DNA from: Escherichia coli | GTDB lineage: Bacteria; Pseudomonadota; Gammaproteobacteria; Enterobacterales; Enterobacteriaceae | Strand: one strand, 5' to 3' | Assembly (NCBI RefSeq): GCF_041248615.1 | Contig: NZ_CP158426.1 | DNA: 64,000 nt | Part shown: positions 1 to 12,942 of the stretch, in pieces | Layout: every line of letters starts with the position of its first letter | How positions within the stretch are numbered: position 1 is the stretch's first letter | The notes under the pieces: model-generated | What the model was told of the DNA's origin: nothing | Databases searched by the model: none | The model's input: the letters and a program-made list of their open reading frames with translations, nothing else | Program-made: the position numbers and the translations under genes

Positions 1-884
1 GCCGTGACCAGGCAGGCGATGAAGATTAACGCCGCCAGCAGGAAGCTACCGCCGCCGCCAAAGGTATGCTGAACGTAAGCATGCAGAATAGCAGCGCCGT
101 TTGCAGACTGATCGACCAGCGACGCGCTGTCTGAACCCAGACGGAACAGCGCCAGGTACAGCAGAGTCAGACCAACACCCGCCATCAGGCCAGCCCAGAC
201 GGTATAACGGGTCAGCAGACGCGCTTCGGTAACGCCACGAGAACGCGCCGCGTTAACAATAACGATACCAAACACCATTGCGCCCAGCGTATCCATGGTC
301 AGATAGCCGTTAACGAAGCCGTTAGAAAACGCAGCGTTTTGATAAGCCTCAGTCGCCGTGCTGATAGAACCCGCCGGCCAGACAATCGCGGCAACAGACA
401 GGATGACCAGCGCGATAATTTTCAGCGGCGCAAGGAAGTTGCCCACGGTATCCAGCAGTTTGCCCGGATAGAGCGAAACCAGAATAACGATAGCGAAATA
501 AACCAGGCTGTAGATAAACAGCGGCAGTGCGGAATCACCCGTCAGCGGCGCAATGCCCACTTCAAAAGAAACGGTAGCTGTACGCGGCGTAGCGAAAAGC
601 GGCCCCACCGCCAGGTAACACACCGTTGCCAGCAGTACGCCAGCGACTTTACCGATTGGCGTGCTGAGGCTGTCAACACCGCCGCCAACTTTTGCCAGCG
701 CCACTACCGTTAATACCGGCAGGCCAACGGCAGTAATGAGGAAGCCGAATGCCGCAGTCCAGACGTGTTCGCCTGCCTGTAAGCCGACCATTGGAGGGAA
801 AATAATGTTACCTGCGCCGACGAACAACGCAAATGTCATAAAGCCCAGAGCGATGATATCGCGCGATCTTAATTGATGGGTCAT
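1..884 (-). CDS. brnQ: Branched-chain amino acid transport carrier BrnQ, N-terminal part (gene runs off the window start)
   Basis: Reverse-strand ATG at 882-884; translation [26 protein letters not shown]... is the BrnQ N-terminus; frame stays open to position 1. Confidence 0.9.
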
Positions 885-1235
885 AAATCATACTGCCTGT
901 GGATGTGGTGTTGTAACGTTAAATTTTTGTGCCAATCCCTGGGGATGATACAGCGGTATATTTAAACAATTTTAGCGGGAAATACTCCCAACCAGGCGCG
1001 GCGAAGAATAGTTTTTCGATTTACCGCGTGAATGCAGTCAGTATGACAGCACCTGAAGCGCAATTTAAACGCTTATAACGTTTTAAAGCAAGAAGGGATC
1101 TAAAAACCAGAGGTATATAGCGATAAGAAATCACCAACCAGTATAAAACACTATTTCCGTGAAAAAGACATGGCTAATCATGCGAACAAAAAATCACCAA
1201 CCGTTGTAAAATCTAACGCCTGTATTTTGACTGCA

Positions 1236-1263
1236 AAGAAAATAAGCCAGCATCGGCTGGCTT
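1236..1263 (-). terminator. Rho-independent terminator downstream of phoR
   Basis: Perfect 8-bp stem aagccagc/gctggctt (1244-1263) with 4-nt loop; on the minus strand it is followed by a T-rich run, about 30 nt past the phoR stop. Confidence 0.55.
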
Positions 1264-1290
1264 ATGGCAATAAAAGATGACAAAGGCGGA

Positions 1291-2586
1291 TTAATCGCTG
1301 TTTTTGGCAATTAAACGTTCCGGGATAACAAAACTGAAACGTGTTCCTTTTCCTACTGTACTCTCAATATTCAGGCGACTTTCGTGATGATTCACCGCAT
1401 GTTTCACGATCGCTAACCCTAATCCGCTACCGCCGGTTTGCCGGGAACGCGCTTTATCAACGCGATAAAAACGCTCGGTCAGGCGCGGAATATGCTCCGG
1501 TGCAATGCCCGGTCCGTTATCTTCAACGCTAAATTCGGCACCGTGCGGCACTCGCTGCCAGCTTACGGTGATATGCGTGCCTTCCGGCGTATGATTTACG
1601 GCGTTATAGACCAGGTTCGAAATCGCACTGCGTAGCTGATCTTCGTTGCCAGACACCTTGAGGCCGTTATCTATCTCAAAGGTAAATGTCTGTTTTTTCT
1701 GACTCAGAGTCTGAGCCTCGCGCTCAACAACGCGCAGCATCATTGGCACATCAACCTTTTCATTGAGCAAATGCGTCGGTGCGGCTTCTATTTTCGACAG
1801 CGTCAGCAACTGCTTCACCAGCCCTTCCATCCGCTGGGTCTGCTCGCGCATGGTGTGCAACGCTTTTTCACGTACCGCGCCTTCCAGCGGTTGCTCATCC
1901 ATCATCTCCAGGTAACCCTGTAACACGGTCAATGGCGTACGTAACTCATGGCTCACGTTGGCAAAAAAGTTACGCCGCGCCCCTTCCAGTTGATGCATTT
2001 GCGTGACATCACGCGCCACCATCAGCAACTGTTTGTGGGTATAAGGCATGACGCGAATTTCCAGATGCCGCCCGGTGTTGAGCACCAGATTAAGCGGGCG
2101 AGAAAAATCACGCGTTTTCAGATATTGCGTAAACTCCGGGTAACGCAGCAAGTTAAGGATGTTCTGCCCGTTATCTTCCGGCCAGCGCAAGCCAAGAATC
2201 TGTTGCGCCAGACCGTTGCACCAGAAAATACCGCCCTCTTCCGTGGTCAGCACCACCGCGTCGGGCAGCGACTCCGCGCCGCTACGAAAGCGTTTAATCA
2301 GATTGCCCAGTTCGCGGCGGCGTTTTTTATTTCGCAACTGCATCTGGTGTAATCCGTATAGCAGCGGTTCCCAGCTACCACGTCCCGGTGGCGGGGTCAT
2401 ACTACGATCCACCCACAGCCACCATGAAAGGCGCAATAAATTCCAGAAATGCCAGATAAGCAGTCCTGTTACCGATGCCAGCAAAAACCAGGGCAGGTAA
2501 CCAAAAAATGCACCCAGGATGAAAGCCGGGAGGCAGCAAAGTAGCAGCTCCAGCACCAGCCTTTTCCACGACAGCCGTTCCAGCAC
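1291..2586 (-). CDS. phoR: Phosphate regulon sensor histidine kinase PhoR
   Basis: 431-aa ORF; H-box [12 protein letters not shown] and HATPase region; directly downstream of phoB as in the phoBR operon. Confidence 0.96.
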
Positions 2587-2643
2587 GTAAGATACTCCAG
2601 TTAAGAATTCATAAGCCCTGCTCTGCGTCCGATGAGCAAGGCG

Positions 2644-3333
2644 TTAAAAGCGGGTTGAAAAACGATATCCTGTACCGCGCACGGTCTGCACCATGCGGTC
2701 ATGCCCGCCGGGCTCCAGTGCTTTACGCAGGCGACGAATGTGGACATCGACTGTACGATCTTCCACATACACGTTGGTTCCCCAGACGTGGTTTAACAGC
2801 TGCTCGCGGCTGTACACGCGCTCAGGATGCGTCATAAAAAAGTGCAGCAGTTTAAATTCTGTCGGCCCCATCTCCAGTGGCTCTTCGCCCGCCATCACCC
2901 GGTGAGATGTCGGGTCGAGGCTTAGCCCCTGCATCTCGATCACCTCTTCCACCGCCATTGGCGAAATACGGCGCATTACCGCTTTGATTCGCGCCACCAG
3001 CTCCTTCGGCGAAAACGGCTTGGTGATATAGTCATCCGCGCCGGTTTCAAGGCCGCGCACGCGATCTTCTTCTTCCCCTCTGGCGGTCAACATCACCACT
3101 GGAATATCCCGGGTCATCGACTCGCGCTTGAGGTGTTTGATGAACTGGATACCGGAGCCGCCAGGTAACATCCAGTCAAGGAGAATTAAATCCGGCCAGG
3201 GTTCATTCAGTTGATTCACAGCACTGTCATAATCTTCCGCTTCGACCGGCTGAAAGCCATTTTGTTCGAGCACGAAGCAGACCATTTCGCGAATTGGAGC
3301 TTCATCTTCTACGACCAGAATACGTCTCGCCAT
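2644..3333 (-). CDS. phoB: Phosphate regulon response regulator PhoB
   Basis: 229-aa [21 protein letters not shown]...; receiver domain plus OmpR-type winged helix. Confidence 0.97.
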
Positions 3334-3385
3334 GATTTGCCCTGTTGTAATAAATAGGTTGCGATCATTAATGCGACGTCATTAT

Positions 3386-3415
3386 GCGTCAGATTTATGA
3401 CAGATTTATGAAAAG
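3386..3415 (-). promoter_or_regulatory. Pho box (PhoB binding site) of the phoB promoter
   Basis: Minus-strand sequence ttttcataaatctgtcataaatctgac carries tandem CTGTCATA-type repeats about 50 bp upstream of the phoB start. Confidence 0.7.
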
Positions 3416-3522
3416 CTCGTCGCACATATCTTCAGGTTATTGATTTCCGTGGCGCAGAAAAAAGCAAATGGCACATCTGTTTGGGTATAATCGCGCCCAT
3501 GCTTTTTCGCCAGGGAACCGTT

Positions 3523-4725
3523 ATGCGCATCCTTCACACCTCAGACTGGCATCTCGGCCAGAACTTCTACAGTAAAAGCCGCGAAGCTGAACATCAGGCT
3601 TTTCTTGACTGGCTGCTGGAGACAGCACAAACCCATCAGGTGGATGCGATTATTGTTGCCGGTGATGTTTTCGATACCGGCTCGCCCCCCAGTTACGCCC
3701 GCACGTTATACAACCGTTTTGTTGTCAATTTACAGCAAACTGGCTGTCATCTGGTGGTACTGGCAGGAAACCATGACTCGGTCGCCACGCTAAATGAATC
3801 GCGCGATATCATGGCGTTCCTCAATACTACCGTGGTCGCCAGCGCCGGACATGCGCCGCAAATCTTGCCTCGTCGCGACGGGACGCCAGGCGCAGTGCTG
3901 TGCCCCATTCCGTTTTTACGCCCACGTGACATTATTACCAGCCAGGCGGGGCTTAACGGTATTGAAAAACAGCAGCATTTGCTGGCGGCTATTACTGATT
4001 ATTATCAACAACACTATGCCGATGCCTGCAAACTGCGCGGCGATCAGCCTCTACCCATCATCGCCACGGGACATTTAACAACTGTGGGTGCCAGTAAAAG
4101 TGATGCTGTGCGTGACATCTATATTGGCACGCTGGACGCGTTTCCGGCACAAAACTTTCCACCAGCCGACTACATCGCGCTCGGGCATATTCACCGCGCG
4201 CAGATTATTGGCGGCATGGAACATGTTCGCTATTGCGGTTCCCCCATACCACTGAGTTTTGATGAATGCGGTAAGAGTAAATATGTCCATCTGGTGACAT
4301 TTTCAAACGGTAAATTAGAGAGCGTGGAAAACCTGAACGTACCGGTAACGCAACCCATGGCGGTGCTGAAAGGCGATCTGGCGTCGATTACCGCACAGCT
4401 GGAACAGTGGCGCGATGTATCACAGGAGCCGCCTGTCTGGCTGGATATCGAAATCACTACTGATGAGTATCTGCATGATATTCAGCGCAAAATCCAGGCA
4501 TTAACCGAATCATTGCCTGTCGAAGTATTGCTGGTACGCCGGAGTCGTGAACAGCGCGAGCGAGTGTTAGCCAGCCAACAGCGTGAAACCCTCAGCGAAC
4601 TCAGCGTCGAAGAGGTGTTCAATCGCCGTCTGGCACTGGAAGAACTGGATGAATCGCAGCAGCAACGTCTGCAGCATCTTTTCACCACGACGTTGCATAC
4701 CCTCGCCGGAGAACACGAAGCATGA
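3523..4725 (+). CDS. sbcD: DNA repair nuclease SbcD (Mre11 family)
   Basis: ORF track 3481-4725; start placed at ATG 3523 ([13 protein letters not shown], giving 400 aa); phosphoesterase motifs DWH, GDVFD, GNHD; stop overlaps sbcC start (ATGA). Confidence 0.95.
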
Positions 4726-10226: not shown

Positions 10227-10350
10227 GGTACTCTCCTTATTTTTTTCAATATCAATAGCGTAGAGACGGACAACCGGATTGGCAATGCAAGGCCGCCGAC
10301 AATTCGTTATCATGCCCGCTAAATTTAACGACAAGGCCGTGGAAATTATC

Positions 10351-11262
10351 ATGCTGTGGTTCAAAAATTTAATGGTTTACCGTCTTAGCCGCGAGATTTC
10401 GCTGCGTGCAGAAGAGATGGAAAAACAGCTAGCCTCGATGGCATTTACCCCATGCGGCAGCCAGGACATGGCGAAGATGGGCTGGGTTCCTCCGATGGGA
10501 TCGCACAGCGATGCGTTAACGCACGTTGCCAATGGTCAAATTGTTATCTGCGCGCGCAAAGAAGAAAAAATCCTCCCGTCTCCGGTGATTAAACAGGCGC
10601 TGGAAGCGAAAATCTCCAAACTGGAAGCGGAACAGGCGCGTAAGCTGAAGAAAACCGAAAAAGATTCGCTGAAAGACGAAGTGCTGCATTCTCTGCTGCC
10701 GCGTGCTTTCAGCCGTTTTAGCCAGACAATGATGTGGATCGACACGGTTAACGGTTTGATTATGGTGGACTGCGCCAGTGCCAAAAAAGCGGAAGATACG
10801 CTGGCACTGCTGCGTAAAAGCCTGGGGTCGTTACCGGTTGTACCATTGAGCATGGAAAACCCGATTGAACTGACGCTGACCGAATGGGTACGTTCCGGCA
10901 GCGCGGCACAGGGCTTCCAGCTGCTTGATGAAGCCGAGCTGAAATCGTTGCTGGAAGATGGCGGCGTGATCCGCGCGAAGAAACAAGATCTGACCAGCGA
11001 AGAGATCACCAACCACATTGAAGCCGGAAAAGTGGTGACTAAACTGGCGCTCGACTGGCAGCAGCGCATTCAGTTTGTGATGTGCGACGATGGTTCGCTC
11101 AAGCGTCTGAAGTTCTGCGACGAGCTGCGCGATCAAAACGAAGATATCGACCGTGAAGATTTCGCCCAGCGTTTTGATGCCGATTTCATCCTGATGACTG
11201 GTGAACTGGCAGCGTTAATTCAAAACCTGATTGAAGGATTAGGTGGCGAAGCACAACGTTAA
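10351..11262 (+). CDS. rdgC: Recombination-associated protein RdgC
   Basis: ORF track 10279-11262; start placed at ATG 10351 ([16 protein letters not shown], giving 303 aa). Confidence 0.95.
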
Positions 11263-11280
11263 TTGCTGATTTACCTTTAA

Positions 11281-11314
11281 TGCCGGATGCGACGCCTGCC
11301 GCGTCTTATCCGGC
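11281..11314. repeat. REP element downstream of rdgC
   Basis: tgccggatgcgacgcctgccgcgtcttatccggc, a classic REP palindrome. Confidence 0.8.
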
Positions 11315-11419
11315 GTGCGAAGCTACACCAGGCATATAATTATTCGCTACGGCGGGCAATAATTTTTAGCGCAGCAATATTATGCGTTTTATGCTGTAAC
11401 TTGCTCCAGGGGCGTTGTG

Positions 11420-11701
11420 TCATTGTTTTTCCTCAAGCCGGTGACGCGCTTCACTGCGAATTTTTCGCGTTGCCCCGGTTTTCACTAAATCACGTAACAG
11501 CGAAAGATCGGGTTGTTCGACAAATAAGAGTAATGATGGATCCTCTTTTAACCACGCCGTTTTCACATCGGCAGCCAGCTGTGAATTATTAATAGCCAGC
11601 GACCGCTCCTGAGGCTCAGTCAATGTCGTTAACAACAACACCGGGGTATGTGCGTTGTGCAATGCCGTTTGGCGCAAATGATCATTGCGACTTTGCAGCA
11701 A
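11420..11701 (-). CDS. ykiA: Small hypothetical protein at the position of K-12 ykiA
   Basis: 93-aa ORF in the rdgC-ppnP gap where K-12 annotates ykiA; no recognisable motif; identity rests on synteny only. Confidence 0.45.
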   Translation of the reverse strand: MLQSRNDHLRQTALHNAHTPVLLLTTLTEPQERSLAINNSQLAADVKTAWLKEDPSLLLFVEQPDLSLLRDLVKTGATRKIRSEARHRLEEKQ

Positions 11702-11908
11702 TGCACGCCACCATTCATCATCTGATTTATCTTTTATCGTCGCCAGTTCCGCAACAATATCTGGAGATCTTCGCTGATATTTATATCAACCTTGATGAAT
11801 TATGAATATATCGGAAATCGAAAAAATCCCAGCAAAGGAAATATTATTATGGGTTAAAGAGAGGACATTTCAGATAAATGCCCTCCCGTTCAAGGGGAAG
11901 GCGAGGAA

Positions 11909-12193
11909 TTACAGATAGCGGCACAGATAAGAGGTGGGTTCGGCAACTTGCAGATGAAACTCGCTGTGACCGGGAACATTAAACACCGAACCGGCTTCAT
12001 ACACTTGCCAGTCGGTCGCGTCAGGCAGTAACACATTCAGCGCGCCACTGATTACCGTCATCTCTTCAGGCTCAGCGGTGCTGAAGGTGTATTCACCTTC
12101 AACCATAACACCCACGCTGGCGCGACCAGTGCTGCTGCTGGAAAAGCCGATCGATTTCACTTTGCCGGAAAAGTACTCATTACTTTGAAGCAT
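11909..12193 (-). CDS. ppnP: Pyrimidine/purine nucleoside phosphorylase PpnP (YaiE)
   Basis: 94-aa [20 protein letters not shown]...; matches PpnP/DUF1255. Confidence 0.93.
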
Positions 12194-12264
12194 AAACTGG
12201 CCCTGTCTGGTAGTTGAACATCTACTTCACTATAGGGGCCAGAGGCGCTGGCTGTCACGCAAAA

Positions 12265-12942
12265 TTACATCAGTAATTCCGCAGCCAGCCGTGCAATCAA
12301 TACGTTAGAGAGCAAAACAGGAACATCGAGCTGTTTTTGCAGTAAATCGCGATGACGCTGGTTAAATCCCAAACAATCCAGCATGATGACATCTGCACCT
12401 TTTTCCAGTAATTCTTTTCCGGCATCAATGATTTTTTGTTCCGAATCATGAATGGGGTTACCCAATGAAAATACTGGCGGTTTCTGCAAAATTTGCCATT
12501 TTTGCGCCTGAACGGTCAGCAACTCCTCAACCGGAACGATAACCCCCACCTGATGATCTTCAACAATAGAAGAAACCAGCGGAGGCAATATTCGCGACGG
12601 CTCAAGAAAGATCGTATTACGCGCAGTCATACTACTAATGTTTGCTGTACTCATTAATAAAATGACGTCATAACCCTGATTATCGAGCACTTCAACCACA
12701 CCTTGCAGGTCACGCTCCACTTTGCGACGCGAAACATGGGCCAGCTGGTTGTCATTTAATAATGTGAGAATTGTGTCTTCGCCTGCTTCTGGCGCGTACT
12801 CCGCCATCACTTCTTCGCGGCTTAACTTCCCCAGCAGGCTATGATGGGAAATATTATCTTCGTCAATGTATTCTGTCAGGAGCGGCAAAACTTCCTGCAT
12901 AGGTACAATGCCGATGGTCAGGATCGCCAACGACGCACTCAT
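12265..12942 (-). CDS. aroM: AroM protein (function unknown)
   Basis: 225-aa ORF at the 3' end of the aroL-yaiA-aroM operon. Confidence 0.92.

What the first reader, a model, noticed from the sequence alone, without database searches (positions are those of the whole stretch)
11420..11701. ykiA-position small ORF of unknown function
A 93-aa ORF with no recognisable motif sits between a REP element and ppnP, with a candidate hairpin (gccctcccg...ggggaaggc, about 11880-11907) between it and ppnP. Its coding status is uncertain.
Basis: inference. Interest (0 to 1): 0.15.

Follow-up and report, generated by a model that had tools for sequence, protein, structure and literature searches.

The report
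ykiA: leftover tail of dead gene
The flagged 93-codon reading frame is real but is the leftover tail of a 759-codon E. coli gene that lost its front 85% by deletion; it is already annotated as the pseudogene ykiA, so the finding is ordinary.

Summary
The ORF exists exactly as described (window 11420..11701, minus strand, TTG start, 93 aa). It is not motif-free: it matches Pfam DUF2773 end to end (E=1e-43). It is E. coli ykiA (b0392), which K-12 MG1655 and NCBI PGAP annotate as a pseudogene "missing N-terminus". In E. coli O157:H7, E. whittamii and cryptic Escherichia clades, the same ppnP/rdgC slot holds an intact 759-aa gene. That gene encodes a signal peptide, a beta-helix domain and a long LRV/HEAT-type helical solenoid. 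The window keeps only its last 113 codons. Two deletions (1070 + 864 bp) removed the start codon, the signal peptide and residues 1-356 and 363-650, but kept the ancestral promoter region and 5'UTR. The downstream gene (SF0329 family, 151 aa) suffered a 372-bp in-frame deletion that produced the 27-aa YkiD. The remnant has no ATG. Its substitutions (19 nonsynonymous : 9 synonymous) fit neutrality. It is absent from 474 of 5426 complete genomes, and frameshifted copies exist. The hairpin at 11880-11902 is the ppnP terminator. Verdict: a known pseudogene of low interest. The only modest additions are the reconstructed decay path and the observation that DUF2773 is merely the C-terminal end of a larger exported protein family.

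The parts
11420..11701 (-). The flagged 93-aa ORF (TTG start). It corresponds to residues 667-759 of the intact 759-aa protein.
11420..11761 (-). ykiA pseudogene as annotated (113 codons + stop). It is homologous to residues 647-759 of the intact protein, covering the last LRV/HEAT-like helical repeats and the whole Pfam DUF2773 model.
   Evidence: annotation; alignment of translations; model helices 646-758
11750..11767 (-). An 18-nt relic (TCTCCAGATATTGTTGCG) identical to codons 357-362 (SPDIVA) of the intact gene and in frame. It is flanked by deletion junction 1 (5'UTR position -3 joined to codon 356, about 11767) and junction 2 (inside the 12-bp repeat GATATTGTTGCG / GATATTTTTGCG, 11750-11761).
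   Evidence: (exact-block mapping: diagonals 0, +1070, +1934)
11768..11879 (-). Retained ancestral promoter region and 5'UTR of the 759-aa gene. It is AT-rich (31-37% GC) and near-identical to the region upstream of the intact gene. It contains a sigma-70-like match at 11873..11846.
   Evidence: [quoted passage not shown] The exact TSS position was not available to me.
11880..11902 (-). Intrinsic-terminator-like hairpin (GCCTTCCC/GGGAGGGC + ATTTATCT) lying 6 nt after the ppnP stop codon; read here as the ppnP terminator.
   Evidence: conserved in O157 and S1-CAM alleles
11340..11423 (-). ykiD, 27 aa. It is an in-frame deletion derivative of the 151-aa SF0329-family gene (first 10 and last 17 codons). 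Its ATG overlaps the ykiA TGA (ATGA), as in the intact gene pair.
   Evidence: YkiD was detected by SPA tag in K-12 (PMC6001520).
11393..11401 (+). Junction of the 372-bp deletion inside the SF0329 gene. It is the single surviving copy of the direct repeat GCYGTAACT that flanks the deleted segment in intact alleles.
11280..11316 (.). REP-type palindrome between the rdgC stop and the ykiD stop (context only).
11909..12193 (-). ppnP (context; upstream neighbour on the minus strand).

Best explanation
The ORF is the non-functional 3' remnant (pseudogene ykiA) of a 759-aa gene that once filled the ppnP-rdgC gap.

The intact protein has three parts: a Sec-type signal peptide (cleavage motif ACA|TEW), an N-terminal beta-helix domain (about residues 65-176), and an LRV/HEAT-type alpha-solenoid (186-759). 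Pfam DUF2773 is only its last 81 residues.

In the lineage of this window two deletions occurred. A 1070-bp deletion ran from 3 nt upstream of the ATG to codon 356. An 864-bp in-frame deletion ran between two 12-bp repeats (codons 359-362 and 646-649). Together they removed the start codon, the signal peptide, the beta-helix and most of the solenoid. The promoter region, 5'UTR and last 113 codons remain. A third deletion (372 bp, between GCYGTAACT repeats) collapsed the downstream SF0329-family gene into the 27-aa YkiD.

The following steps are inferred. The remnant is still transcribed from the retained BglJ-RcsB-responsive promoter, and this carries the still-translated ykiD. The remnant itself has no ATG, only a TTG with a weak GGTGG upstream. 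Any product would be a cytoplasmic three-repeat fragment of an exported protein. It is drifting neutrally and does nothing.
For: 1. Homology and synteny. Pfam DUF2773 matches the 93-aa ORF at E=1e-43 and residues 679-759 of the O157 759-aa protein. The intact gene lies between ppnP and rdgC in O157:H7, in a divergent E. coli (L014), in Escherichia sp. E4930, and in E. whittamii and E. sp. E1V33.
2. Junctions were mapped to the base.
3. The order of events is shown by alleles. L020 has the same junction plus an intact 151-aa SF0329. L003 has the same upstream junction but lost the remnant and kept SF0329.
4. Population counts over 5426 complete E. coli genomes: window-type 4543, remnant-less type 474, full-length interval 444.
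5. Annotation. It is a pseudogene in NC_000913.3 and in PGAP records.
6. Selection. Intact-vs-intact dN/dS is 0.22-0.26 for this C-terminal part (0.12-0.19 for the whole gene). Remnant-vs-remnant dN/dS is 0.4-1.07. ppnP is 0-0.06. The remnants carry 19 N: 9 S derived changes, compatible with neutrality (p=0.27) but not with omega 0.23 (p=0.012). One allele has a 3-bp deletion. Frameshifted or fused ORF variants appear in public data.
7. There is no ATG/GTG/TTG between the upstream stop and the TTG at 11701, and no Met codon anywhere in the frame.
8. Architecture of the intact protein. The AF2 model has pLDDT 91.5. The family profile hits 1LRV at E=7e-13. LRV/HEAT Pfam hits occur in family members. 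Signal-peptide-like N-termini occur in 26 of 40 members.
9. Transcription and ykiD translation: PMC3950696 and PMC6001520.
Against: The frame is still open in all six remnant alleles sampled. The allele is carried by 84% of complete E. coli genomes. The promoter is active and regulated, and the overlapping ykiD is translated, so ribosomes reach the region.

The N:S test rests on 28 changes and cannot exclude weak constraint (point estimate of omega about 0.64). A direct Fisher comparison with an intact pair is not significant (p=0.20). I had no ribosome-profiling or proteomic data for the remnant itself.
Confidence: 0.9

Rival explanations
1. The remnant has been exapted as a small cytoplasmic protein of 93 aa (up to 121 aa if a non-canonical start is used). 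It would consist of about three LRV/HEAT-like repeats and be translated from the TTG at 11701 under BglJ-RcsB control.
For: The frame is open in 6 of 6 sampled remnant alleles. The allele is retained in 4543 of 5426 genomes. The promoter is regulated. A GGTGG lies 6 nt upstream of the TTG (sequence). The point estimate of omega is 0.64, below 1.
Against: There is no ATG in the frame. Omega is not distinguishable from 1, and the replacements are radical (R>C, R>W, T>M, P>S). The remnant is deleted entirely in 474 genomes, and the intact gene or nothing is kept in others. Frameshifted variants exist. The fragment lacks the signal peptide of a family that is typically exported. Curators classify it as a pseudogene.
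Confidence: 0.05
2. The stretch matters as RNA, not protein. It would be the long 5' leader of the ykiD mRNA, kept because it links ykiD to the BglJ-RcsB-activated promoter.
For: YkiD is detected as a protein in K-12. ykiD has its own GAGG Shine-Dalgarno inside the end of the remnant and an ATGA overlap. The only promoter reported for the locus lies upstream of ykiA.
Against: YkiD is itself a deletion scar (10 + 17 codons of a 151-aa protein). It has no family match. It varies (R11H in this window). It is replaced by full or frameshifted SF0329 in other strains. Nothing indicates it has a function that would need a leader.
Confidence: 0.04
3. It is a chance ORF in intergenic DNA with no coding ancestry.
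Against: Pfam E=1e-43. The nucleotide alignment to the 3' end of an intact 2280-bp gene is collinear.
Confidence: 0.01

Closest known systems
E. coli K-12 ykiA (b0392) pseudogene with ykiD (b4732)
   Same: It occupies the same slot (ppnP - ykiA - ykiD - REP - rdgC) and has the same deletion junctions. The remnants differ at 4 amino-acid positions and 3 synonymous sites over the 109 codons compared.
   Different: This window's allele differs by a few substitutions: R681H, A687V, D698E and P706S in the remnant, and R11H in YkiD. K-12 has a TGA at the position where the window has CGA, 8 codons upstream of the annotated start, so the open frame is a little longer here.
Intact 'DUF2773 domain-containing protein' of E. 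coli O157:H7 (WP_120795310.1, 759 aa) and its homologues in E. whittamii and cryptic clades
   Same: The C-terminal 113 residues are collinear and about 90% identical. The promoter/5'UTR, the neighbours and the ATGA overlap with the downstream gene are the same.
   Different: The window lacks residues 1-356 and 363-650 (signal peptide, beta-helix, most of the solenoid) and the start codon.
Leucine-rich repeat variant (LRV) protein of Azotobacter vinelandii (PDB 1LRV) and HEAT/ARM solenoids such as the PP2A A subunit
   Same: The intact family's helical repeats match 1LRV by profile (E=7e-13). They match Pfam LRV, LRV_2 and HEAT in many members. The AF2 model resembles HEAT/ARM solenoids.
   Different: The resemblance is to a repeat type, not to a function. 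TM-scores are at most 0.3. The family adds a signal peptide and an N-terminal beta-helix that has no Pfam model. The window's fragment holds only the last few repeats.

Membership tests
Pfam PF10971 (DUF2773) | HMM score above the gathering threshold (25 bits) over the model | tested here: met
   147.6 bits, E=1.2e-43, model positions 1-81 of 81
E. coli ykiA (b0392) orthologue | Same genomic slot between ppnP and ykiD/rdgC, and collinear sequence | tested here: met
Intact 759-aa exported beta-helix + LRV solenoid family | N-terminal signal peptide | tested here: not met
   The remnant starts at the equivalent of residue 647 (plus a 6-codon relic of residues 357-362). The signal peptide is present in the O157 protein and in 26 of 40 family members.
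Intact 759-aa exported beta-helix + LRV solenoid family | N-terminal beta-helix domain (residues about 65-176) and a full-length solenoid (about 570 residues) | tested here: not met
   Both are deleted. The domain limits come from the AF2 model.
Functional protein-coding gene | Canonical start codon with a ribosome-binding site | tested here: not met
   There is no ATG in the frame. The first candidate start is the TTG at 11701, preceded by a weak GGTGG.
Functional protein-coding gene | Purifying selection on the reading frame | tested here: inconclusive
   19 N: 9 S derived changes. This is compatible with neutrality (p=0.27) and incompatible with the omega of 0.23 seen in intact copies (p=0.012), but the sample is small.
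Functional protein-coding gene | Evidence of translation of this frame | not testable with these tools
   Only ykiD, not ykiA, is reported as detected (PMC6001520).
Rho-independent terminator (the hairpin at 11880-11902) | GC-rich stem-loop followed by a U-run, placed just after a stop codon on the transcribed strand | tested here: met
   8-bp stem with 6 GC pairs and the tail ATTTATCT, 6 nt after the ppnP stop. It is more stable on the minus strand (-15 vs -12.4 kcal/mol). The U-run is interrupted in this allele; K-12 has ATTTTTCT.

The most novel reading that the evidence does not exclude
The decayed locus would be a proto-gene in the making. The retained BglJ-RcsB-responsive promoter would drive a bicistronic transcript, from which both a TTG-initiated 93-aa LRV-repeat fragment and the chimeric 27-aa YkiD are made. 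At least one of them would have acquired a cytoplasmic role, and that would explain why this particular deletion allele is carried by 84% of E. coli genomes.
Probability: 0.05. Interest if true: 0.4.

Novelty: already known. Interest (0 to 1): 0.08.

Why it matters
It matters little for biology, because the ORF is a curated pseudogene. There are three small practical points.

1. The Pfam family DUF2773, and the name 'DUF2773 domain-containing protein', rest on the C-terminal end of a roughly 760-aa exported beta-helix + LRV/HEAT solenoid family. Annotating the 81-residue piece as a domain of its own hides that architecture.
2. YkiD, counted among validated E. coli small proteins, is an in-frame deletion scar of a 151-aa SF0329-family gene. 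This should temper functional expectations for it.
3. BglJ-RcsB 'target gene' ykiA is a promoter left in front of a dead gene in K-12. Its real target is the 759-aa protein present in O157:H7 and about 8% of complete genomes.

Tried and rejected
- NCBIfam on the 93-aa ORF and on YkiD gave nothing meaningful.
- PADLOC on the intact protein and on SF0329 gave no hit, so a defence-system or toxin-immunity reading has no support.
- A PDB sequence search with the single 759-aa protein gave no hit. Foldseek against the PDB returned only generic HEAT/ARM solenoids with TM at most 0.3, which gives no functional lead. The afdb50 library was not available.
- Gene neighbourhoods of four non-Escherichia homologues (L007, L015-L017) showed no conserved partner, so no function can be read from context. 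SF0329 is not an obligate partner.
- I looked for the mapped ykiA transcription start and the BglJ-RcsB box coordinates. They are in a figure and supplement that are not held, so I did not place them on the window.
- Rfam on 11200-12300 gave only a sub-threshold REP-derived naRNA4 match.
- Literature searches for ykiA and b0392 found nothing on function beyond the two papers cited.
- The first word-indexed protein search found only 6 relatives. The exhaustive HMMER search was needed to see the wider family.

Full report
**What is at the coordinates**

The window is E. coli chromosome: mak - rdgC - REP - ykiD - ykiA - ppnP - aroM - yaiA - aroL. The flagged ORF is present exactly as stated: 11420..11701 on the minus strand, 93 aa, TTG start. 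Translating further upstream shows that the frame stays open to 11785. An in-frame TGA lies at 11786-11788. There is no ATG, GTG or TTG before the TTG at 11701 and no Met codon anywhere in the frame.

The palindrome at about 11280-11316 folds strongly on either strand (z about -3.7).

The hairpin is at 11880-11902, 6 nt downstream of the ppnP stop codon (11909-11911) on the minus strand. It forms eight pairs with a G-U wobble and is followed by ATTTATCT, at -15 kcal/mol. On the plus strand the same DNA has a C-A mismatch and folds less well. It is the ppnP terminator and is unrelated to the ORF.

**It is not motif-free**

The 93-aa translation matches Pfam PF10971 (DUF2773) over the whole model, at 147.6 bits and E=1.2e-43. 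A megablast of 11270-11910 against 5426 complete E. coli genomes hits 5424 of them. RefSeq/PGAP annotates the stretch 11420..11761 as 'DUF2773 domain-containing protein; incomplete; missing N-terminus' (pseudogene). It annotates 11340..11423 as the 27-aa 'protein YkiD' or 'hypothetical protein'. The K-12 MG1655 reference lists ykiA (b0392) as a pseudogene and ykiD (b4732) as a CDS. The object is therefore already known and already classified.

**What it is a remnant of**

In O157:H7 the same ppnP-rdgC gap holds two genes: a 2280-bp gene for a 759-aa DUF2773 protein (WP_120795310.1), and, overlapping its stop by ATGA, a gene for a 149-aa SF0329-family protein (PF25753). The C-terminal 113 residues of the 759-aa protein align collinearly with the window's frame.

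Exact-block mapping on the gene strand (alignment) shows four segments:
- The window equals the O157 sequence through the intergenic region and 5'UTR, up to 3 nt before the ATG.
- It then carries an 18-nt piece identical to codons 357-362 (SPDIVA), in frame.
- It then resumes at codon 650.
- Two deletions therefore occurred. One of 1070 bp removed the ATG, the signal peptide, the beta-helix and the first part of the solenoid. One of 864 bp (288 codons, in frame) lies between two 12-bp repeats, GATATTGTTGCG and GATATTTTTGCG.

Downstream, a 372-bp in-frame deletion between two GCYGTAACT repeats reduced the SF0329 gene to YkiD. YkiD is the first 10 and last 17 codons of the 151-aa protein.

**Order and spread of the events**

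- A GTDB species representative, Escherichia sp. MOD1-EC7003, carries the identical remnant junction together with an intact 151-aa SF0329 gene (L020). The big-gene deletions therefore came first.
- Strain S1-CAM-02-A has the same upstream junction but has lost the remnant from codon about 652 to its stop. It keeps a (frameshifted) SF0329.
- Among 5426 complete genomes, 4543 carry the window-type allele over at least 80% of the query. 474 carry the remnant-less type. 444 carry at least 80% of the 2960-bp full-length interval.
- These three counts sum to 37 more than the 5424 genomes with any match. I infer that this reflects intermediate alleles counted twice.
- IS3 and IS1 insertions occur in further strains.
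- Outside E. coli the intact gene sits in the same slot, without SF0329, in E. whittamii, Escherichia sp. E1V33 and Escherichia sp. E4930.
- The closest non-Escherichia homologue (49% identity) lies between sprT and an MFS transporter gene in another enterobacterial contig.

**Selection**

For the 109 codons that can be compared, intact-versus-intact pairs give dN/dS of 0.22-0.26 (0.12-0.19 for the whole gene). Remnant-versus-remnant pairs give 0.4-1.07. The neighbouring ppnP gives 0-0.06.

I also counted derived codon states seen only in remnant alleles. There are 19 nonsynonymous and 9 synonymous changes, including R>C, R>W, T>M and P>S. This fits the neutral site ratio (binomial p=0.27) and not the intact-copy omega (p=0.012). 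A direct Fisher test against one intact pair is not significant (p=0.20). One allele has lost a codon. The public protein set contains frameshifted and ykiA-ykiD-fused ORFs (P0043, P0044, P0045, P0061), although some of these may be assembly errors. The data favour relaxed constraint, but the sample is small and I say so.

**What the parent protein looks like**

An exhaustive HMMER search found 169 relatives, about 40 of them full-length (735-830 aa) at 20-35% identity. With a 40-sequence alignment, AlphaFold2 gives a confident model (pLDDT 91.5). It has an N-terminal hydrophobic helix, a beta-helix at about 65-176, and an all-helical solenoid at 186-759.

- 26 of 40 members have signal-peptide-like N-termini, followed by a conserved Trp. 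The O157 protein has an AxA site (ACA|TEW) and no canonical lipobox (read from the sequence).
- Family members hit Pfam LRV_2, LRV and HEAT, and the family profile hits PDB 1LRV at E=7e-13.
- Foldseek finds only generic HEAT/ARM solenoids.
- The beta-helix module has no Pfam model and also occurs fused to TPR, LRV or DUF285 regions.
- No conserved neighbourhood and no defence-system match were found.

The parent is thus best described as an exported repeat scaffold of unknown role. The window's fragment corresponds to the last few repeats without any export signal.

**Expression**

Salscheider et al. (PMC3950696) showed that the K-12 ykiA promoter fragment (the ppnP-ykiA intergenic region) is activated by BglJ-RcsB. 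They mapped a start site by 5'RACE and a binding site centred at -79. They treated ykiA as a 113-aa protein of unknown function. That intergenic region is the ancestral promoter/5'UTR of the 759-aa gene, conserved between intact and deleted alleles, and is AT-rich.

VanOrsdel et al. (PMC6001520) detected SPA-tagged YkiD. The transcript therefore exists and the ancestral SF0329 ribosome-binding site and ATG still work. Nothing I could access shows translation of the ykiA frame.

**Verdict**

The best explanation is a transcribed but functionless 3' gene remnant (confidence 0.9). The rivals are exaptation as a small protein (0.05), a role as an RNA leader for ykiD (0.04) and a chance ORF (0.01, refuted). 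Novelty: already known. Interest is low.

Noticed in passing
[not shown]
   Followed up: partly
L005:2691-4970 (-), residues about 60-180 of the 759-aa protein: The N-terminal beta-helix module has no Pfam model. It recurs in proteins of other architectures (fused to TPR arrays, LRV repeats or DUF285). About half of the 169 HMMER hits match only this region.
   Followed up: partly
window 11420-11761 and Pfam PF10971: The Pfam DUF2773 model (81 positions) covers only the extreme C-terminus of a roughly 760-aa family. It coincides with what survives in the E. coli pseudogene, and only 7 of 40 full-length family members match it.
   Followed up: yes
L005:2245-2694 (-) compared with L020:2872-3327 (+): The O157:H7 strain 3384 copy of SF0329 is 149 aa and ends ...ALKNYCPP. 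Other copies are 151 aa and end ...ALKIIARRSE. The difference comes from one extra T near the 3' end, so even the 'intact' O157 copy has an altered tail.
   Followed up: partly
L012 (E. coli VE-T9) 830-4444; hit H16 (strain EC6): There are independent IS insertions into this locus. An IS3-family element splits an otherwise full-length DUF2773 gene in VE-T9. An IS1A lies next to the remnant in EC6.
   Followed up: no
window 11786-11761 compared with K-12 L006:786-810: K-12 has CAG TGA AGA where this window has CAG CGA AGA in the read-through 5'UTR. The open frame upstream of the remnant therefore differs in length between strains (121 codons here, shorter in K-12), as expected for unconstrained sequence.
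   Followed up: yes
window 12229-12258 (-): This is the best sigma-70-like match of the scanned region (GTGACA-18-TATAGT, 10 of 12). It lies in the aroM-ppnP gap just upstream of ppnP.
   Followed up: no
window 10279-11262 (+): The mechanical ORF for rdgC (327 aa, TTG) is 24 codons longer than the annotated rdgC (303 aa, window 10351-11262). The same over-extension appears in other Escherichia loci.
   Followed up: no
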